A DNA stretch of 64,000 nt. It comes from a virus. Positions 2,663 to 57,609 of the stretch are shown here, in pieces (the first letter of the stretch is position 1; every line of letters starts with the position of its first letter). A program made the position numbers and the translations under genes. The stretch covers positions 1 through 64,000 of the IMG/VR virus record IMGVR_UViG_3300035661_000043; one strand, given 5' to 3'. A model generated the notes under the pieces. It was not told where the DNA came from and did not search any database. It was given only the letters and a program-made list of their open reading frames with translations.

Positions 2663-4366
2663 ATGGCAAACACCCTACTATTAAAGCGATAGTCAACGGC
2701 TAGTGCCGCACCTACTACAGGACAACTAGCACTAGGTGAACTCGCAGTCAATAGTAGGGATGGTACTTTATTTCTAAAACGAAATAATGGTACTACTGAC
2801 TAGATCGTAAAAGTCTGGACAGATCAATAGCTGATAAACACCAGTCAGCTCATCAATAACTCAAATTTCATCACAAGCACTCAAGCCACAACAACAATCG
2901 GTTCTGGTGTAACAGGTCCTATCTTCCTGAACATTTAGAACTCAGGTGTCGGAAATTCTTCAGGTTTCAACTTCTTGAAGTCTAATGATGCTGCTGGTAT
3001 ATCTGTAACAGAATTCTCAGATGATTCTACTCTGTATGAATTCTTCATGTCTGATAATCCAGATGGAGGAGATTCATTTAGTTGGAGATGGACTGACTGG
3101 CAGGGTGCCAACGGATTATGGAACCCAATGTTGATTGGTGGCAGATGTACGACAGTACTGTCATCCACAATTTCAATGAATGGTGTCCTGACGCAGTCAA
3201 TGTCTCGTTGGTATACGACTAGAAACACAACTGCTGCTAATGCTGCACAGAATATTGCCGCTTACAACACACCTGCTTTCTTGAAGATTGAAGGCACAGG
3301 CACTGTGACAATCACAACTCTGGATATCAATGGATATTCAGCCTGGAGTGGTGTAGTTTTCAGCATTCGGTTCATATCCAGTACTCAATTTGAGTGGGGG
3401 TATGGTGGTCCGAATTTCACTGCTGTCCAGACCTTAGATCTTGTAGAAGGTCCTATTACACTTTCAAATGGCGTAGTTGTTACATTTTCCTAGACAACAG
3501 GTGCTGTTACAGGTGACCGGTTCCAGTGCAGAATTTGGTACATAACGAACAATGATCTGCAGACTACACAGTTCAGAGGGAATATCTATCCAGACGGGTA
3601 GAATACAAGAACTAGCGGTACTGCTTCTAGATACTGGTCAAATACATACTCTCAAATCTTCACATCTAGTGCTACTACGGGTACCGCACCACTTTCTATT
3701 GCATCAACTACACTAGTCAACAATCTAAACGCGGATTTGTTGGACGGTCAGCATGCAAGTTCATTCCAACCAGCATTAGTCTCTGGGACTAATATCAAAA
3801 CCGTAAACGGTATTTCTGTTTTAGGCACAGGAGATATCAACACATCTGGTGCTTCTGCATATGAAAAGCAAATATTCAGTGCTCCTACCGCGGGACAAAC
3901 ATCATTCACAATCTCAGGCGGTTATCCTGCTAATAAGATTGAATTCTTCAGAAACGGGGTGAAGTTAGTAGCGGGTCTGGATTATGATGCAACATCTGGG
4001 GCTTAGATCACACTTGTTGGATTCTCTGCAGCTGCAGGTGATGTGTATGAGGCGTACTGGTTTGATTCGATTACTACATAGACACAAGTTCAAGTAAGAG
4101 ATGGTGGGTAGGATTCTGGCATGATCATGGACTCTTTCCCGGGTGAAGTGTGGCATATGAAAGCGGGGAATAGTCTCAGACTTCCGGCTAATCCAGCTAT
4201 TGGCAGTTTTGTTAAGATGCACAAATCATCTGGTTTCTAGATGTCTATCCTGCGAAATGGTTAGAATATCATGGGGTTGCAGGAAGACATGACAGTCAAT
4301 GTATACACTGCAGTATAGATAGACTTTATATATGTAAGTGCTACTTATGGGTGGGCAGTTAACTGA
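2663..4366 (+). CDS. Tail fibre-like virion protein (many TAG)
   Basis: LKR*STA..GELAVN, NLNADLLDG and LVSGTNIKTVNG repeats; joins ORFs 2975 and 3737 in frame; TGA stop. Confidence 0.8.
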
Positions 4367-5505
4367 TGACTAAAGCAATACAAATATCGTAGGCAGCAAT
4401 TGCTAATGGTGTAGCAACTCTTGATGCAAATACTATACTAACACCCACTCAATTTCCAGCAGTATCAGGCGATGTTTCTGTTGCTGCCGGTTCTACAACG
4501 GCGACTCTTGCTAATTCTGGTGTTGTTGCAGGAACATATAATGGTATATCAACATAGGTAACACCTTTCACAGTTGATGCTAAAGGTAGAATTACTAGTG
4601 CGGGGACTGCAGTCATAGTCACCCCTGCATGGTCTAGTATCACATCTAAACCAACTACATTAGCTGGATATGGTATCATTGACGCTCAACTCTCTTCTGA
4701 TGCTGTAACAAAGTCTGCCACTGGTCTAGGACAAACTGGGGGCGGTCTAGGGTTAGATATAACAACGAATACTGCTGCTGAATGGGCTGCACTTCCAGTC
4801 GGTTATTCGCGGATGTTTGGTTCAGCATCACAACGAGGTGGTGATGGCACAGAAGGTGCGCCTGATATCAATTATGGATACTTCAGAAAGATAGCAAACC
4901 GTGATACAGGAGACGGTTGGGTTGGTATGTGGTATTCTTACTAGCAGCCGGGTAATATCTGGTATGGAGCAACAGTTACATCTGCTGCTACCGCGACGTG
5001 GTATAAAGTATGGACTCAGGCGAATGATGGTGATGGTTCTGGCATGGATGCAGACTTGTTGGACGGTCAGCAGGGGTCATTTTACATGGCGGCATCCATG
5101 TCAGATGTCAACAACACTGCAGGAAAAGTAGTTCTCAGAGACACAGACTAGTCAGTCCAAGTTGGTGATGTCAAAATTAATGCCCTTGTCACACTTAAGC
5201 CGTACACTATTACTACAACAAGCATATAGGAAACTATTCTGGCTACATTTAGTACTGGTTTATATGGTTGCATCAAAGTTGTTCTTTCTGCTACAACAGG
5301 AACAGAAAGACACGTGACCGAATGTCTGATTACATATAATTCAACTGATGCATTCATGACAGAATATGGAACGATGTGGACTGGTGCAGCAAAACAATTT
5401 AATCTGTCCGTTGATATCACAACAGGTGGTGTCAGATTGAAGACAACTTCAACAGCTGCAACATCTACAGTTTATAGATTCATAACAACTCTCTTAGTAC
5501 CATGA
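4366..5505 (+). CDS. Tail fibre-like virion protein (several TAG)
   Basis: FTVDAKGRIT repeat shared with 1073-2473 and a DADLLDG motif; in frame with ORF 5314. Confidence 0.75.
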
Positions 5506-5696
5506 GTATAATTCTCAGAACATCAAAATTTGCTGCTAATACTGGATTGACTGCCATGTCAGGATTTTCTTTCCATGTGGTCATAAACAGAATTGGGAAC
5601 TTTGCACAGGGGTGTTATGTTAATGCATTAATCTTGAACGCAACTCAGACGACTTGTGGTGGGTTGTATACATCAGCTGTTGGGAGATTTTTATGA
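5502..5696 (+). CDS. Small hypothetical protein
   Basis: ATGA overlaps on both sides. Confidence 0.5.
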   Translation: MSIILRTSKFAANTGLTAMSGFSFHVVINRIGNFAQGCYVNALILNATQTTCGGLYTSAVGRFL

Positions 5697-6874
5697 GTCT
5701 GGTCTTTGGTGGACATGTATCTCGGAGTGGTCTCATTTCGTATCTAGACACATCAAATAAAGGCAAGTGCTGGCTTGGAGTCCCTTCTACAAATAGTCTG
5801 TTATATTCTAATGATTTTACATTTTGGAATAAAAGTTCGGGTGTAGATGTTGTGCCAGCTTCATGGGAAATGGGTCCATTTGGATTCTAGAATGCAAAAA
5901 GAATCACTGCAAATGGTACTACTAGTGCTTATATTAATAGGTCCAGTGACTCACCTGTAGCAGCCGGAGATACTCTGACAAAAAGCATATATGCAAAAGC
6001 TGGAACTCTTAACACCATTATCAGTGAATTTAATGATAACGCAGCATATTTTATTACAACATTCAATGTCAGCACTGGCTCTATAACTAGAAATGATGCA
6101 GGAAATACAGCTACAATAGAATCATGTGGCAATGGTTGGTTTCGTTGCAGTGTGACCAGAACTTTTATTGCTGCTTCATCGGCTGGGGTGTGGTATCTTG
6201 GTGTATATGGTACATCTCCGGCTGGATATATTTTTCTTCATGGCGCACAACAAGAGTTACATTCTGGTGCTTCTAGACTTATCGAGACAAATGGTGTAGC
6301 AGTTACTAGAACAAATGGTTTAGTAGATTTGGTTGACAAGAACATTTACACTCAGAACTCGTTACTGTACGGAAATGATTCATTCTCTTTCAACGACTCC
6401 CCATCAAGTATTACAAGATCTATCACATCAGCATTCTTCAGAGATTCTAGTTGGACTGTGTCCGTAGTAGTGAAATTCTATGTTGTAAACAAGGGTTCTG
6501 ATAATGGAATTTTGAGCCACGTCGAAGTAGATGGTGTGACTAATAAACATTTGAATTTAGTTGAAAGAGCTGGAAAAATTTATTACGGTTTTTATGGTAA
6601 TGATTTTCAGACGAATATGAGTGTAAGTGCTAACGTCCCGTATCTTATAAACTTCACATATAATCCAGTCACACTAAAACAGGAAATTTATATAAATGGT
6701 GTGTTAGCACAGGGAAGAACTGCCAGTACTGCATATACAGGTGTTTCCTCTACGATTACTGTTGCTTCATGTCTATCAGGCGAATTGCCTATGATGATGA
6801 TACATGACAGAGTTTTAAGTGCATCAGAAATAAATATCTTATTCGTGACAAATAAGATAAAGTTTGGATTGTAA
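5693..6874 (+). CDS. LamG/concanavalin-like domain virion protein
   Basis: C-terminal YINGVL..HDRVLSASEI..KFGL LamG signature; joined through TAG 5888. Confidence 0.75.
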
Positions 6875-50035: not shown

Positions 50036-50111
50036 GGGACTATAGTTTAATGGTTAAAACATCACCCCTTTAAGGTGTAAGCTCTCGGTTCGAATCCGAG
50101 TAGTCCTACCA
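50036..50111 (+). tRNA. tRNA-Lys(TTT)
   Basis: CC-TTT-AA loop, GGTTCGAATCC, CCA. Confidence 0.8.
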
Positions 50112-50280: not shown

Positions 50281-50415
50281 GATCCAAAGAATAATTATAA
50301 AGCATTGCAAGATAAAGAAAAGATAAAATCTGTAATCAAACAAAATGAAGTTAATTTGAAGATCGTATTGAATCATCAATTGACTTTATTACATATAAGA
50401 AGCCTCTGTAGTTAA
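50281..50415 (+). pseudogene. Homing endonuclease C-terminal remnant following a tRNA 5' half
   Basis: DPKNNY..DKEKI..V..QN..HQL matches the C-terminus of 51486-52340. Confidence 0.7.
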
Positions 50416-52620: not shown

Positions 52621-52696
52621 TGCGGCGTGGAGAAGTAGTATCTCATCAGTCTCATAAGCTGAAGGTCGTCTGTGCGATTCAGACCGTTCGCAACCA
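52621..52696 (+). tRNA. tRNA-Met(CAT), initiator-like
   Basis: CT-CAT-AA loop; ends CGCAACCA. Confidence 0.7.
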
Positions 52697-52966: not shown

Positions 52967-53040
52967 GCTGCGTAGTCCGAAAAGTGAGGGCGCGACTTGA
53001 TAAGGCGCTGGCAGATGGGGCAGTACCATCACGCAGCACC
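52967..53040 (+). tRNA. tRNA-Ile(GAT), atypical
   Basis: Acceptor GCTGCGT/ACGCAGC and TT-GAT-AA loop. Confidence 0.5.
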
Positions 53041-53209
53041 CATTTTCAATAGGAAGTATGAGGATCATTACCTCGTAATAGGTGTAACTATACTTTGTAT
53101 TTCCACCGTAGACTTGGTGTCCCGGAACTGCGCGCGCCGGAAGACGGTTCGATTCCGTCGTTAAAAGGTTTATGTTAGGTTCGATTCCTAACCGGTGGCC
53201 TACTTATTA

Positions 53210-53575
53210 TGTGCGATATCTCTATCGCACATCAGAATGACTGTATGGATCTTCGGATCTGTGAAGTTGAAAGAAATGTGTTCAGGAAGCGAGTTCGAGT
53301 CTCGCCAGCTCCACCAGAAGTATATCATCTGATGCATTCTGTGTGCTGTATATATTGCAAGTATTCAGTATACTTCTGATGGGGCTGTATTGGTTTCGAC
53401 TGGGCAATGAGTATGGAGATGGACAGTTTGGCAACGCAGAAGCCATTATGATTGGGTCTTCCCGGTTGAAGAAGCAAACAAAAGTAAAAGCAAACGCTGA
53501 TACATTCCTGATGGCGGCTTGATCGCCCAGTGAGGATTCCTTGGGTGTTCCTTATTACCAAAACACCCATCCTAA
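53210..53575 (+). ncRNA. ssrA: Circularly permuted (two-piece) tmRNA
   Basis: T arm and CAGCTCCACCA (ending 53316) precede GGGGCTGTATTGGTTTCGAC (53381); tag ANADTFLMAA-TGA at 53490-53522; outer ends approximate. Confidence 0.9.
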
Positions 53576-53580
53576 TATAC

Positions 53581-53668
53581 GGAGAGTGGACCTGCAGGGT
53601 GCAGGCGCTGTTTGCTAAACAGTTGGTGTCAGGAATGGCATTCCGGTCGGGACGGACTCTCTCCTCCA
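53581..53668 (+). tRNA. tRNA-Ser(GCT)
   Basis: GGAGAG acceptor, TT-GCT-AA loop, long variable arm, U73, CCA. Confidence 0.75.
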
Positions 53669-53721
53669 AAATTCTTTCTAAGAGCTGATCCCTCTTAGTT
53701 AGACAGGAGTTATAACTCCTG

Positions 53722-53825
53722 GGCCCGTAGTGATGGAATGGTAGACATAAGCCCACGTGGGCTGGTGGGATAAACCCCGGGGTTTAAACCCCACGTACAG
53801 GTTCGAGTCCTGTCTACAATGGGCC
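53722..53825 (+). ncRNA. tRNA-Leu-like ncRNA, copy 2
   Basis: Same architecture as 51067, with compensatory changes. Confidence 0.65.
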
Positions 53826-53835
53826 AAATAATTAT

Positions 53836-53910
53836 AGATTCTAGGGTGTGATAGCAGCACGATTCCCTCATAAGGAATAGGACTCCGAGCGTAACGGATA
53901 GAATCTACCA
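53836..53910 (+). tRNA. tRNA-Met/Ile(CAT), atypical
   Basis: ATTCC-CTCATAA-GGAAT arm, CCA. Confidence 0.55.
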
Positions 53911-53929
53911 AATGACAGACTTCTTTGGT

Positions 53930-54004
53930 GTGATGTTAGCTTAACAGTAAAGTCCGAGAATGTGACTCTCGTGGATATGGATGCGACTTCCATACATCAC
54001 CCCA
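53930..54004 (+). tRNA. tRNA-His(GTG)
   Basis: AT-GTG-AC loop, C73, CCA. Confidence 0.75.
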
Positions 54005-54632
54005 AAGAAGTTTTAATGCTCCGGCTCCTCTGTCAATTTTTCAATGATGAAAGTTCATCATGACTACTACCAAAGAAACCCAAGACAACGCATCATTTGT
54101 ACAGATGGCAATGATGTGAAAAGTAAATGGAAAGCTTTTATTCATTCCTGTGATATAATACATTCATGGAAACGAACGATGACTGGAAACGCGAATTCTT
54201 CTACTATCGTCAATTTCGAGTTTGGGTTGGTGAAAGATAGTGAAGGCAACCAAATTGGTGATACTGAATACTTTCCAACAAAACTCTCACAGTGACCTGG
54301 AAAGAGGAAGTTGTTAACTATACTTCCTCTTCATAGTAAGCAGAAGGTGGATCTATGTACAGTAGCACGCACTTGACATTCTTATTTTTAATGAGTAAAT
54401 CATGATCATCAAAGCTAATGTTTCTGTGTGTGATATCACAGATAGGAACTACGGTAAGTATATCGAAGGTGCTGCAGCTATTGCCGTGGTGCAACCGGTC
54501 GCTGGTGTGCTGTACTCTGGTTTGGTCCTGAGTATATTGCAGAGAATGATTTGAAGATCACCTCTCGTGAAGAAGCAGTTAAGAAGATTGAAGCACTGGG
54601 AGATCAGGTAGATTCTTAAAGAAAGATAAATT

Positions 54633-54896
54633 GCAAATTTAGCTCAATGGTTAGAGCAGCGGACTCATGAAAAATTGTGCACCTAGGTAGGGATGCTTAG
54701 TGTGAATGTTGTCAAATTCGAAGAAACCTAAGTCAGAAATGATATGGTAACCTCGAGCCAAGCCTGAGAAATTAGGTGCTGTGTAGAGACTAGACGGCAA
54801 CCATCTAGAACAGATGAAGGTATAGTCCAGGGAGTGGCGAAAGTCACACAAACCAGAATCCGTTGGTTACAGGTTCGAGTCCTGTAATTTGCACCA
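54633..54896 (+). tRNA. tRNA(CAT) (Ile2/Met) interrupted by a group I intron
   Basis: Exons 54633-54668 and 54857-54896 join into a perfect cloverleaf (GCGGA-CTCAT^AA-TCCGT). Confidence 0.9.
54669..54856 (+). mobile_element. Group I intron (IC3, Azoarcus type), 188 nt, no ORF
   Basis: P/Q/R/S elements AAATTCG..AAACC, CGAGCCAAG, GTAGAGACTAGACGG and GGTATAGTCC; terminal G. Confidence 0.93.
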
Positions 54897-54940
54897 AGAA
54901 TTAATGCGAGGTTGGTATAGATAGATGGTAACCTCTTAAA

Positions 54941-55015
54941 CGCACCGTGGCTGAAATGTTAGGCAGTGGATTGCAAATCCACTTTATGAGATCTCAGAAT
55001 TCTCCGGTGTGTCCA
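54941..55015 (+). tRNA. tRNA-Cys(GCA)
   Basis: TT-GCA-AA loop, U73, CCA; atypical T arm. Confidence 0.7.
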
Positions 55016-55134
55016 TATTTTTCAGTAAGTGACTAAGAAATAATCTATCTCTGATGTTCGTATAATGAGCTGTTTCTCTTAGTTAGAAGATAAGAGAATA
55101 TTGAACAACCCATTGTATTTGTTCTTAAAAATTC

Positions 55135-55209
55135 GGGTCTGTGGTGAAACGGAAATCATAAGAATCTTCTAAATTCCTGTTCCAAGTTCGATTCTTGGCA
55201 GACCCACCA
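55135..55209 (+). tRNA. tRNA-Arg(TCT)
   Basis: CT-TCT-AA loop, CCA. Confidence 0.85.
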
Positions 55210-55307
55210 TTTAATATTGGAAGTAGCTCAATTGGTAGATCACAGACTCGAGTATGAAGATGAGACGGATCGCCGTAGTAAATGGGCTATCCAATTGACC
55301 GTTTAAT

Positions 55308-55382
55308 ATACCCTTAAGATAATGGCAGTCGTCAGGTCTCCAAAACCTTGAAGTCGCGGTTCGAGTCCGTGGGGTTATGCCA
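55308..55382 (+). tRNA. tRNA-Trp(CCA)
   Basis: CT-CCA-AA loop, G73, CCA. Confidence 0.75.
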
Positions 55383-55666
55383 TAATATAATACAACTATA
55401 GTTTAGTTTGGAGATGTAACTTACATCTCGTCTCCGGATAGCTGCTCCATGTTCGAATCTCTCTAGGTGTTCCGATATTCGGTGATTGATCCCAGTCATC
55501 GCTGGGCATACACTGGAAATGTATCGGTCTGTATGAAACTGGATTCGTGTCGGTAACGACTATCTCCTCCATCTTAAAGCCCCGATGCTGAAAGATATTT
55601 GAACTTTTATTCAGTCCGGTGATATAATTCATCCACACCACAACAAAACACTGAAAGAGGTAGTAT

Positions 55667-56122
55667 ATGAAGAATGGTGAATTATTGTCAAAGGCTATCA
55701 TTATTGCGACAAACGCACATGCTGGACAATTTGATAGGGGTGGTACTCCATATATCCTGCACCCACTGCGAGTGATGTCATACTTGGAGGATGCAGACGA
55801 GGAACTCCAGTGTATTGCAGTTTTACACGATGTAGTAGAGGACACCTCTGTTACTTGGAAAGATCTTATCGAAGCAGGTATGACTCAACGAATCATCAGT
55901 GCTCTAAGATTGCTGACAAAGCTTTCCGGTCAGACACCGGATGAATACAAAGCAGGAGTTCTTTCTTCTGTGGATGCGATGAAGGTGAAAATGTGCGACT
56001 TGCGTCACAATTCTGATGTCCGCAGGTTGAAAGGCGTCTCTGAAAAAGACATAGCAAGAACTGCAAAGTATCACATGTTCTATATGGAAATCAAATCTGT
56101 TTTAGAACAAAGCAGAATTTGA
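55667..56122 (+). CDS. HD-domain (p)ppGpp hydrolase-like protein (SpoT-HD/SAH family)
   Basis: AHAGQ..PYILHPLRV, LHDVVEDT and VKMCDLRHN motifs. Confidence 0.88.
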   Translation: MKNGELLSKAIIIATNAHAGQFDRGGTPYILHPLRVMSYLEDADEELQCIAVLHDVVEDTSVTWKDLIEAGMTQRIISALRLLTKLSGQTPDEYKAGVLSSVDAMKVKMCDLRHNSDVRRLKGVSEKDIARTAKYHMFYMEIKSVLEQSRI

Positions 56123-56242
56123 CATGAAGGAAAATTGAACATTACTCTCACTTTAGCTGAACTCTAGTTTAGTGTAGTCGAGTCTTCTGTTTGTGATGTA
56201 GAATATTCACCGGATCTGATCCGTGCTACTGCCCAAGATAAT

Positions 56243-56319
56243 CCGCCGTTAGCGCAATTGGTAGGAGGCAACTGGCTTAAGACCAGTACAGTGTGGGTTC
56301 GAATCCTCACGGCGGACCA
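56243..56319 (+). tRNA. tRNA-Leu(TAA) with short variable loop
   Basis: ACTGG-CTTAAGA-CCAGT arm, CCA. Confidence 0.8.
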
Positions 56320-56339
56320 TGTATTATGAAAGAGTGAAA

Positions 56340-56699
56340 ATGAAAGACATCCTAGGTCGCGAAGTTCATGTTGGTAATTATATTGCCTATGCTCAGGTTG
56401 CCGGTAGATCTGCTAATATGGCAATTTACAATGTCATCGCCATTGTCGGTGATTACCATGGTACTATCAAGGCGACGAAACTAGTAGAGAGCTATGGAGA
56501 TTATGCTCCATCTCGAATGTGTACTCTCACATCTGGAAAGGTAATTCCATGGCGATATGCGACACACACGAAAGATGTATGGAAACTTATTGAAATGACT
56601 CCAGAAGAAAAAGATGCAGTAGATAACAAGACATTCACTCTGAAGATCGGAGAGAGAATCATTATCCTCGATAATTTTACTCCAGATGTAGTAAAATAA
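56340..56699 (+). CDS. Hypothetical protein
   Basis: MKDILGREVHVG N-terminus common in phage proteins. Confidence 0.6.
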   Translation: MKDILGREVHVGNYIAYAQVAGRSANMAIYNVIAIVGDYHGTIKATKLVESYGDYAPSRMCTLTSGKVIPWRYATHTKDVWKLIEMTPEEKDAVDNKTFTLKIGERIIILDNFTPDVVK

Positions 56700-57519: not shown

Positions 57520-57609
57520 GGAAGTTTGGCAGAGTGGTTTATTGCCGCGGACTCTAAATCCGCTGAATCAGAGATGGTTCCACGAGTTCGAATCTCGTAA
57601 CTTCCTCCA
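57520..57609 (+). tRNA. Amber-decoding tRNA (anticodon CTA) with a serine-type body
   Basis: GGAAGTT/AACTTCC-T-CCA acceptor, GCGGA-CTCTAAA-TCCGC anticodon arm, long variable arm GAATCA-GAGA-TGGTTC, T arm GTTCGAATC. Confidence 0.93.

What the first reader, a model, noticed from the sequence alone, without database searches (positions are those of the whole stretch)
54633..54896. Compact Azoarcus-type group I intron in a phage tRNA(CAU)
The insertion site (CTCAT^AATCCG) and the 3' end (GTCCAGGGAGTGGCGAAAGTCACACAAACC.G) closely match the Azoarcus tRNA-Ile intron as I recall it. At 188 nt it is shorter than that roughly 205-nt model ribozyme and more AT-rich. It implicates phages as vectors of tRNA introns and, together with the permuted tmRNA, hints at a betaproteobacterial host (inference).
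Basis: partly seen in the sequence, partly recalled or inferred. Interest (0 to 1): 0.7.

Follow-up and report, generated by a model that had tools for sequence, protein, structure and literature searches.

The report
Minimal self-splicing intron in phage tRNA
A T4-like phage from a microbial mat carries a tRNA(CAU) gene split by a 188-base self-splicing group I intron; this is a trimmed relative of the well-studied Azoarcus ribozyme, in a setting (phage tRNA genes) where a 2014 review said no such intron had been seen.

Summary
At 54633-54896 a tRNA(CAU) gene is split after the anticodon (CUCAU^AA) by a 188-nt intron (54669-54856). The intron scores 66.4 bits on Rfam Intron_gpI (cut-off 50). 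It belongs to the classical Ile2.5Ug / IC3 class, whose type member is the 205-nt Azoarcus intron. I recovered that intron (L108) and checked it against a printed sequence.

- The 3' 32 nt match Azoarcus at 31 positions; overall intron identity is 68%.
- The window keeps P1, P3, P4, P5, P7, P8, P9.0, P9 and omega-G, with compensatory changes in P3 and P4.
- It agrees at 86 of 95 intron columns that are invariant in 41 relatives.
- It is the shortest of about 100 tRNA introns fetched.
- It alone has L2 GGGA instead of GAAA, and it has lost the 11-nt receptor in P8. Both partners of one tertiary clamp have therefore changed.

A 19-nt P9 motif hit only Betaproteobacteria. This supports the host hint; the permuted tmRNA does not. 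About 50 of 62 fetched IMG/VR loci, and the cultured phage Atu_ph07, hold similar unannotated tRNA introns. This scan had already noted group I introns in phage tRNAs on other DNA. Splicing was not observed.

The parts
54633..54668 (+). 5' exon of tRNA(CAU): acceptor 5' strand GCAAAUU, D arm, 5' half of the anticodon stem, and loop bases CUCAU ending in the anticodon CAU
   Evidence: ARAGORN -i; sequence; family alignment and pair counts
54669..54856 (+). Group I (IC3) intron, 188 nt, no ORF; first base G, last base omega-G at 54856
   Evidence: Rfam RF00028 66.4 bits; homology to 41 family members
54857..54896 (+). 3' exon: AA of the anticodon loop, 3' half of the anticodon stem, variable loop, T arm, acceptor 3' strand AAUUUGC, discriminator A (54893), encoded CCA (54894-54896)
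   Evidence: all exon helices pair in the window row
54677..54679 (+). Internal guide sequence GUG. It pairs with exon CAU (54666-54668) to form P1, with the U.G wobble at the 5' splice site
   Evidence: the three pairs are invariant in 40 distinct sequences
54674..54676 (+). AUU next to the guide sequence, complementary to the first three bases of the 3' exon (AAU, 54857-54859): putative P10
   Evidence: read from the sequence; inference, not conserved across the family
54680..54704 (+). P2 hairpin, 10 bp with one bulged U, capped by a GGGA tetraloop (54690-54693). All 41 relatives have GAAA here
   Evidence: fold -9.0 kcal/mol; alignment; invariant-column test
54708..54713 (+). P3 5' strand GUUGUC; pairs with 54796-54801 (GGCAAC). 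The second pair is U-A where relatives have G-C
54718..54723 (+). P4 5' strand UCGAAG; pairs with 54751-54756 (CCUCGA). One G-C to A-U compensatory change and one A.C mismatch
54727..54747 (+). P5 with an intact 11-nt GAAA receptor (CCUAAG...UAUGG) around a 3-bp distal stem
   Evidence: sequence; alignment; receptor definition from PMC2275092
54762..54777 (+). P6 reduced to one 6-bp hairpin with a GAAA loop (54768-54771). Relatives have P6 plus P6a
   Evidence: fold; alignment gaps
54788..54792 (+). P7 5' strand GACUA; pairs with 54823-54827 (UAGUC) to give the pseudoknot that holds the guanosine site
   Evidence: 5/5 pairs in the window; A-U to U-A compensatory change in 4 relatives
54796..54801 (+). 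P3 3' strand GGCAAC
54802..54816 (+). P8 reduced to a plain 5-bp hairpin (CAUCU/AGAUG, loop AGAAC). The 11-nt receptor present in all 41 relatives is deleted
54823..54827 (+). P7 3' strand UAGUC
54830..54854 (+). P9.0 (GG 54830-54831 with CC 53-54 of 548xx, i.e. 54853-54854) enclosing P9 (GUGGC/GUCAC, 54834-54847) with the L9 GAAA loop (54839-54842)
   Evidence: 31/32 identity to Azoarcus over the 3' end

Best explanation
This is a working tRNA gene of a T4-like phage, most likely tRNA-Ile2 (anticodon CAU, read as AUA after lysidine modification). It is interrupted by a self-splicing group I intron of subgroup IC3, class Ile2.5Ug, the same family as the Azoarcus pre-tRNA-Ile intron. Mechanism, inferred from the family: the guide sequence GUG pairs with the exon's CAU (P1). 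An external guanosine bound in P7 attacks the bond after U54668. The terminal G54856 then takes the guanosine site, and the freed 3'-OH of the 5' exon joins to A54857. This gives a 76-nt tRNA with the loop CUCAUAA. The ribozyme is a naturally trimmed version. The catalytic core and the L9(GAAA)-P5(11-nt receptor) clamp are kept. The second clamp of the Azoarcus fold (L2 GAAA with the P8 receptor) has changed in both partners (L2 GGGA, plain P8), and P6a is gone. Shown here: anatomy, homology, covariation, phage context. Inferred: that it splices, the tRNA's identity, and what replaces the lost clamp.
For: - Rfam RF00028 scores 66.4 bits against a cut-off of 50.
- ARAGORN -i calls tRNA(cat) with intron i(37,188).
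- Forty-one homologues have the same insertion site. The structure of 73 pairs is 98.6% paired, and 41 pairs show changes on both sides. None of 500 shuffles reached any of the five measures, and slid controls were 32-41% paired.
- In the window row, every pair of P1, P3, P5, P7, P8, P9.0, P9 and all four tRNA stems is standard. P4 has one A.C.
- Compensatory changes are private to the window in P3 (G-C to U-A) and P4 (G-C to A-U).
- 86 of 95 family-invariant intron columns are kept. The 9 differences break down as 2 in L2, the P4 pair (2), 4 in deleted P6/P8 parts, and 1 in J8/7, where the window's U equals the Rfam consensus.
- The acceptor stem has diverged to an A/U-rich perfect 7-bp helix. 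That is not expected of a dead gene.
- The D and anticodon arms are base-for-base those of L108, the Azoarcus tRNA-Ile gene.
- The 11-nt receptor binds GGGA more than 4,500-fold worse than GAAA (Kd >20,000 nM against 4.4 nM), so the two changes are coherent (PMC2275092).
- AUA makes up 10.4 per 1000 codons in 20 phage ORFs.
- The same sequence, with no differences, stands in contigs of two studies (X1 4,731 nt; X3 361 nt spanning 54505-54865), so it is not a chimera.
Against: - No RNA evidence of splicing was obtained; no RNA holder was listed.
- Loss of the GAAA/11-nt L2-P8 clamp is expected to weaken the fold.
- There is an A.C mismatch in P4.
- The intron sits on a very long branch (0.82 substitutions per site).
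- The E. coli TilS acceptor-stem determinants as I recall them (C4-G69, C5-G68) are A-U pairs here, so Ile2 versus elongator Met is not settled.
Confidence: 0.85

Rival explanations
1. The intron is a decaying copy that no longer splices efficiently, so the gene is a tRNA pseudogene carried along in the tRNA cluster.
For: Both partners of the L2-P8 clamp are lost, P6a is deleted, P4 has an A.C, and the branch is long. A second, odd tRNA(CAU) with a poor acceptor stem lies at 52622-52692, so the cluster does hold imperfect genes.
Against: The core is intact and the changes in P3 and P4 are compensatory. All four tRNA stems pair perfectly after heavy sequence divergence. P2, P6 and P8 were shortened cleanly into stable hairpins. 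A roughly 92%-identical wastewater contig keeps the whole gene, with only a 1-base deletion in the P1 loop listed inside the intron's first bases.
Confidence: 0.1
2. The intron splices, but the tRNA is an elongator tRNA-Met rather than tRNA-Ile2.
For: ARAGORN names it Met from the anticodon. Acceptor pairs 4-69 and 5-68 are A-U, unlike the E. coli TilS determinants as I recall them.
Against: The D and anticodon arms are identical to the Azoarcus tRNA-Ile gene, and the intron class occurs in Ile2 genes (Ile2.5Ug, bioRxiv 10.1101/2020.01.27.920355). Another CAU tRNA exists at 52622-52692 that could serve Met. AUA codons are common in the phage.
Confidence: 0.25
3. The tRNA-intron stretch is host (betaproteobacterial) DNA joined to a phage contig by misassembly.
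For: All cellular relatives are Betaproteobacteria. Intronless look-alike tRNAs of other organisms occur in the same metagenomes (joints and loose ends).
Against: Contigs from two studies cover the junctions with zero differences. The gene lies inside a 14-gene tRNA/tmRNA array. Its G+C (0.44) and A/U-rich acceptor stem fit the 39% G+C phage rather than the hosts' exons, which begin GGGCC... It is at most 74% identical in the intron to any cellular copy.
Confidence: 0.02

Closest known systems
[quoted passage not shown]
   Same: Same tRNA arm sequences around the site and the same insertion point (CUCAU^AA). Same guide sequence GUG, P3-P9 core, P5 11-nt receptor and L9 GAAA. The 3' 32 nt are identical at 31 positions. 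Neither has an ORF.
   Different: 17 nt shorter and 68% identical overall; G+C 0.44 against 0.60. L2 is GGGA rather than GAAA. P8 lacks the 11-nt receptor, so there is no TL2-TR8 clamp. P6a is absent. It is carried by a phage rather than a bacterium.
Ile2.5Ug introns of other Betaproteobacteria (Limnohabitans, Massilia, Duganella, Dechloromonas, Limnobacter and others; L064-L097, L101-L109)
   Same: One homologous family, with 63-73% intron identity to the window and 198-214 nt in length. It is sporadic: about 10 of 201 Rhodocyclaceae genomes searched have it, and many others have the uninterrupted gene.
   Different: All keep GAAA in L2 and a receptor-type P8. All are longer, and their exons are G+C-rich.
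Intron-bearing tRNA(CAU) genes on other IMG/VR phage contigs (L006, L016, L018, L020, L021, L032, L034, L043, L044)
   Same: Phage-borne members of the same family. L006 shares 83% of the exon bases and an identical T stem. Several sit in large tRNA arrays (21 tRNAs in L006).
   Different: 198-208 nt, with the L2-P8 clamp kept. These phages are only distantly related to this one, sharing few proteins at 25-50%. Whether they form one clade with the window is unresolved: FastTree gives 0.99, but IQ-TREE does not recover it.
Cyanobacterial/plastid tRNA-Leu(UAA) IC3 intron (Leu.3Ug) and its phage copies (Agrobacterium phage Atu_ph07 L132:1490-1851; huge phage LR756501 L133:1460-1750)
   Same: Same subgroup and core motif (TAGAGACTAGACGGCA). 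It also lies in a tRNA anticodon loop, and it is also unannotated in phage records.
   Different: Different tRNA and different site (inside the anticodon). The peripheral contacts differ.
'Enigmatic' tRNA introns of Lak megaphages (Devoto et al. 2019, PMC6784885)
   Same: Introns in phage tRNA genes. The authors wrote that phage tRNA introns had not been reported before.
   Different: Those were not classified as group I. This one is a canonical ribozyme.

Membership tests
Group I intron (Rfam RF00028) | Covariance-model score above the curated cut-off | tested here: met
   66.4 bits against 50; full-length match 1-253
Group I intron (Rfam RF00028) | P3-P7 pseudoknotted core with P4-P6 and P3-P8 domains | tested here: met
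   All helices pair in the window. The family shows compensatory changes in P2, P3, P4, P5, P6, P7, P8, P9.0 and P9
Group I intron (Rfam RF00028) | U.G wobble at the 5' splice site in P1, and a terminal G (omega-G) | tested here: met
   U54668 pairs with G54677; G54856 precedes the 3' exon
Group I intron (Rfam RF00028) | Guanosine-dependent self-splicing | not testable with these tools
   No RNA run held the stretch; this needs a bench assay
IC3 tRNA intron, class Ile2.5Ug (Azoarcus type) | Insertion after the fifth anticodon-loop base (3' of CAU) of a tRNA(CAU) gene | tested here: met
   CUCAU^AA, as in all 41 relatives; class named in bioRxiv 10.1101/2020.01.27.920355
IC3 tRNA intron, class Ile2.5Ug (Azoarcus type) | Alignable along the whole length with the Azoarcus intron | tested here: met
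   126/186 identical to L108, and 86/95 family-invariant columns kept. L108 was checked against the printed Azoarcus template
IC3 tRNA intron, class Ile2.5Ug (Azoarcus type) | L9 GAAA tetraloop with an 11-nt receptor in P5 (TL9-TR5) | tested here: met
   GAAA at 54839-54842; CCUAAG...UAUGG at 54727-54747. Motifs only; docking was not tested
IC3 tRNA intron, class Ile2.5Ug (Azoarcus type) | L2 GAAA tetraloop with an 11-nt receptor in P8 (TL2-TR8) | tested here: not met
   L2 is GGGA and P8 is a plain 5-bp hairpin; all 41 relatives have both motifs. This is a peripheral feature of the Azoarcus fold, not a criterion of the class
tRNA-Ile2 (lysidine tRNA, AUA decoder) | Anticodon CAU in a non-initiator body | tested here: met
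   CAU; G1-C72 is paired; the anticodon stem is GCGGA/UCCGU, without the three G-C pairs of initiators
tRNA-Ile2 (lysidine tRNA, AUA decoder) | Recognition by TilS and IleRS rather than MetRS | tested here: inconclusive
   The D and anticodon arms are identical to the Azoarcus tRNA-Ile gene, but acceptor pairs 4-69 and 5-68 are A-U. No isotype model was available

The most novel reading that the evidence does not exclude
This is the smallest natural self-splicing group I intron. It folds without the GAAA/11-nt L2-P8 clamp, perhaps by docking its GGGA loop in the minor groove of the CU:AG step of the shortened P8. It is also one visible tip of a large, unannotated population of IC3 introns in phage tRNA genes, which would make phages a main reservoir and carrier of bacterial tRNA introns.
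Probability: 0.3. Interest if true: 0.7.

Novelty: new variant of a known kind. Interest (0 to 1): 0.55.

Why it matters
- The Azoarcus intron is a standard model for RNA folding and for experimental evolution, partly because it is so small. A natural relative that is 17 nt shorter, and that has changed both partners of one of its two tertiary clamps, shows what that fold can do without. It can be tested directly at the bench.
- The 2014 review of bacterial group I introns states that all phage introns seen so far lie in protein-coding genes, despite the many phage tRNA genes (PMC3984707). This locus, about 50 IMG/VR loci, and the cultured phage Atu_ph07 show that this reflects how tRNA finders work.
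- Default tRNA tools miss these genes. Phage tRNA inventories and the codon-supply arguments built on them are therefore incomplete.

Tried and rejected
- **RNA evidence.** No RNA holder was listed for 53000-56500. The one run labelled RNA-Seq (X5, wastewater) is probably DNA; it holds a relative about 92% identical that keeps the intron.
- **Joints 54668>54857 and 54668>54863 in contigs.** I rejected these as spliced or intronless forms of this gene. Each side is only 21-28 letters, and the loose ends read ..GGGCCTA / GTGGGCCCACCA, so they are other organisms' uninterrupted tRNAs that share the anticodon arm.
- **Metagenome scan for close relatives.** The scan used the window's private P3 and J8/7 bases and found two partial look-alikes (L139, L140), neither of them a tRNA.
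- **Tree placement.** FastTree groups the window with the viral L020/L021/L043 (0.99). IQ-TREE does not recover this, and the window's branch is 0.82, so I make no claim.
- **tmRNA as a host clue.** The Rfam permuted model also touches the ordinary tmRNAs of four betaproteobacteria. ARAGORN calls those one-piece, with tags such as ANDERFALAA against the phage's ANADTFLMAA. The tags are similar, but the topology argument fails. No phage record resembles the tmRNA.
- **GenBank phages.** Only a capsid-gene intron core resembles this intron.
- **Promoter and terminator scan.** Nothing above chance.
- **ORF on the minus strand (54651-54851, 66 aa).** It has no support; the tblastn hits only reflect the conserved RNA.
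- **Naming Azoarcus through genome handles.** Names are withheld, so I identified L108 by short motifs and by eye against the printed template.

Full report
**What is there.** The window is part of a 79.7-kb IMG/VR virus record that CheckV rates about 45% complete. It encodes a T4-type major head protein, tail sheath, DNA polymerase, helicase and topoisomerase II large subunit. Its nearest cultured relatives by capsid are Pelagibacter phage HTVC008M (61%) and Methylophilales phage Melnitz (59%). Between 49.5 and 57.6 kb lies an array of 13 tRNA genes and a permuted tmRNA.

At 54633-54896, default ARAGORN and the Rfam tRNA model see nothing. Rfam's group I intron model scores 66.4 bits (cut-off 50, E 1e-14, full model) at 54657-54849. 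Read directly, the 5' exon ends ...GGACUCAU (54668). The intron runs from G54669 to G54856. The 3' exon starts AAUCCG and ends in discriminator A and an encoded CCA.

**Relation to the Azoarcus intron.** A scan of one genome per prokaryotic species for the 19-nt P9 hairpin motif gave 34 loci. All are Betaproteobacteria, including Limnohabitans, Comamonas, Massilia, Duganella, Janthinobacterium, Limnobacter, Dechloromonas, Azonexus and Gulbenkiania. Most of these loci, and eleven IMG/VR contigs found with a core 16-mer, align with the window over the whole tRNA plus intron at 70-78%.

A search of 201 Rhodocyclaceae genomes found about ten more copies. Many genomes have the two exons abutting, so the intron is sporadic within the family. 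One copy, L108 (205 nt by ARAGORN), carries four 22-26-nt segments I recalled from the laboratory Azoarcus ribozyme without mismatch. By eye it equals the 197-nt Azoarcus template printed in PMC8890501, which says the natural intron has eight more 5' bases. I therefore treat L108 as the Azoarcus intron.

Over the whole intron the window is 68% identical to L108 and at most 74% identical to any relative. Exon identity is highest (83%) to the viral contig L006. The class is the classical 'Ile2.5Ug', one of four known IC3 tRNA intron types (bioRxiv 10.1101/2020.01.27.920355).

**Structure.** I aligned 42 family members (A2). I took the RNAalifold helices, removed four that clash with P1 or P7, and added P1 and the P7 pseudoknot.
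- Of the 73 pairs, 98.6% of cells are standard pairs, and 41 pairs change on both sides somewhere in the family.
- None of 500 shuffles reached any of the five measures, and partners slid by 1-3 columns gave 32-41% pairing.
- P7 has an A-U to U-A exchange in four sequences, which supports the pseudoknot.

In the window row, every pair of P1 (CAU/GUG with the U.G wobble), P3, P5, P7, P8, P9.0, P9 and the four tRNA stems is standard. P4 has one A.C. Two changes private to the window are compensatory: G-C to U-A in P3 and G-C to A-U in P4.

Of 95 intron columns invariant in the other 41 sequences, the window keeps 86. The nine differences are:
- two in L2;
- the compensatory P4 pair (two columns);
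- four inside deleted parts of P6 and P8;
- one C-to-U in J8/7 (54821), where U is the Rfam consensus base.

The core is therefore intact. The heavily diverged but perfectly paired acceptor stem (GCAAAUU/AAUUUGC) argues that the gene has been under selection in an A+T-rich phage lineage while carrying the intron. That selection only makes sense if the intron is removed; this step is inference.

**What is unusual.** At 188 nt the intron is the shortest of the roughly 100 tRNA introns fetched here. The family ranges from 198 to 214 nt, and other phage tRNA introns are 195 nt or more. The 17 missing bases come from three peripheral places.
- P6/P6a is reduced to one 6-bp hairpin with a GAAA loop.
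- P5 is shortened above its receptor.
- P8 is cut to a plain 5-bp hairpin, CAUCU/AGAUG.

In Azoarcus two tetraloop-receptor clamps hold the fold: TL2-TR8 and TL9-TR5 (bioRxiv 10.1101/037895). The window keeps the motifs of the second clamp exactly (L9 GAAA; CCUAAG...UAUGG in P5). In the first clamp both partners have changed. P8 has no 11-nt receptor. L2, on a well-formed 10-bp P2, is GGGA, whereas all 41 relatives have GAAA. The 11-nt receptor binds GGGA with Kd above 20,000 nM against 4.4 nM for GAAA (PMC2275092, Table 1). The two changes therefore belong together: once one partner was lost, the other was free to drift or to be re-used.

From memory of the Jaeger/Costa/Michel rules, GNGA loops prefer a CU:AG helix step, and the shortened P8 ends in exactly that step. 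A replacement contact is therefore possible. I did not test this and rate it as a lead.

**Which tRNA.** The body is not an initiator. Its D and anticodon arms are base-for-base those of the Azoarcus tRNA-Ile gene, and the intron class is tied to Ile2 genes. The phage has tRNA-Ile(GAU) at 50402 and a second, poorly paired tRNA(CAU) at 52622-52692. AUA makes up 10.4 per 1000 codons in 20 long ORFs. I give Ile2 about 70-75%. The acceptor pairs that E. coli TilS reads (from memory) are different here.

**Phage context and host.** The same sequence, with no differences, is in a 4.7-kb contig of a microbial-mat run and in a 361-nt contig of a sediment run that bridges the upstream ORF and the intron. 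A wastewater contig about 92% identical keeps the whole gene. Misassembly is therefore very unlikely.

The betaproteobacterial link rests on the intron family and, weakly, on the Melnitz relationship and a beta-like 10-residue tmRNA tag. The permuted topology of the tmRNA does not help. Four intron-bearing betaproteobacteria have one-piece tmRNAs. The intron's place in the family tree is unresolved, so I cannot say from which host, or from which phage, it came.

[quoted passage not shown] Devoto et al. 2019 wrote that introns in phage tRNAs had not been reported, and could not classify theirs (PMC6784885). Williams 2020 mapped tRNA group I introns in bacterial genomes only. My other literature searches found no report of a group I intron in a phage tRNA.

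The data show they are common.
- About 50 of the 62 IMG/VR loci that hold one IC3 16-mer are intron-split tRNAs: Leu-UAA, Ser-AGA, CAU, Lys, Thr, Tyr, Arg and Ile-UAU. Many sit in arrays of 10-30 tRNAs.
- The cultured Agrobacterium phage Atu_ph07 has an unannotated tRNA-Leu(UAA) with a 278-nt intron; its 3' end is overlapped by a 'hypothetical protein' CDS.
- A 735-kb huge phage has one with a 205-nt intron.
- Earlier notes of this scan describe group I introns in phage suppressor tRNAs on other DNA.

This locus is thus not the first phage tRNA intron in the data, but it is a new structural variant of the best-studied family.

**Verdict.** Self-splicing and the Ile2 identity are inferred, not shown. 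Interest is moderate. The intron is a natural minimal version of a model ribozyme, and together with its relatives it corrects a published generalisation.

Noticed in passing
window 1-64000; tRNA at 57520-57609: Reading TAG as a sense codon lengthens many ORFs; for example, 2663-4366 has 12 in-frame TAGs. There are 56 TAGs inside 20 long ORFs, which end in TAA (14) or TGA (6). A 90-nt long-arm tRNA with anticodon CUA lies at 57520-57609.
   Followed up: partly
window 50036-50111: A tRNA with anticodon UUA, which would read the stop codon UAA. It scores 67 bits on the Rfam tRNA model, the best in the array. Yet TAA still seems to end most genes, and I have no explanation.
   Followed up: no
window 53224-53613: A phage-encoded permuted (two-piece) tmRNA: Rfam RF04321 94.7 bits, tag ANADTFLMAA. 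No phage record in GenBank resembles it by blastn. The tag resembles the betaproteobacterial ANDERFALAA, but those bacteria have one-piece tmRNAs.
   Followed up: partly
window 52622-52692: A second tRNA(CAU), found by Rfam (45 bits) but not by ARAGORN. The cloverleaf arms are good, but the acceptor stem has three mismatches. It may be the Met tRNA or a decaying copy.
   Followed up: partly
window 54941-55015: A tRNA-like stretch 45 nt downstream of the intron-bearing gene. It has a perfect 7-bp acceptor stem, discriminator U and an encoded CCA. Its anticodon-type hairpin has the loop UUGCAAA (GCA = Cys). It has no normal D or T arms and no Rfam tRNA match at E up to 1. Fold z-score is -3.0.
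   Followed up: partly
L132:1490-1851 (Agrobacterium phage Atu_ph07, MF403008.1) and L133:1460-1750 (LR756501.1): Unannotated tRNA-Leu(UAA) genes split by IC3 group I introns of 278 and 205 nt, in a cultured jumbo phage and a 735-kb metagenomic phage. In Atu_ph07 a 'hypothetical protein' CDS overlaps the 3' end of the gene.
   Followed up: partly
L002-L063 (IMG/VR loci): About 50 of 62 viral loci that share the 16-mer TAGAGACTAGACGGCA are intron-split tRNA genes of at least eight anticodon types. Some contigs have two or three next to each other: L043 has Leu-UAA at 5363-5654 and CAU at 5953-6230, and L024 and L059 have Thr-GGT, Leu-UAA and CAU.
   Followed up: partly
L139:2900-3497: A metagenome contig in which look-alikes of the 5' part and the P7-P8 part of this intron lie about 500 nt apart instead of 50. 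It may be a related intron with an insert, and there is no tRNA around it.
   Followed up: no
L115, L117-L121, L126, L127 and other Rhodocyclaceae loci: Many genomes of the family have the same tRNA(CAU) exons abutting without the intron, while about 10 of the 201 searched have it. These would serve as clean presence/absence pairs for dating gain and loss.
   Followed up: no
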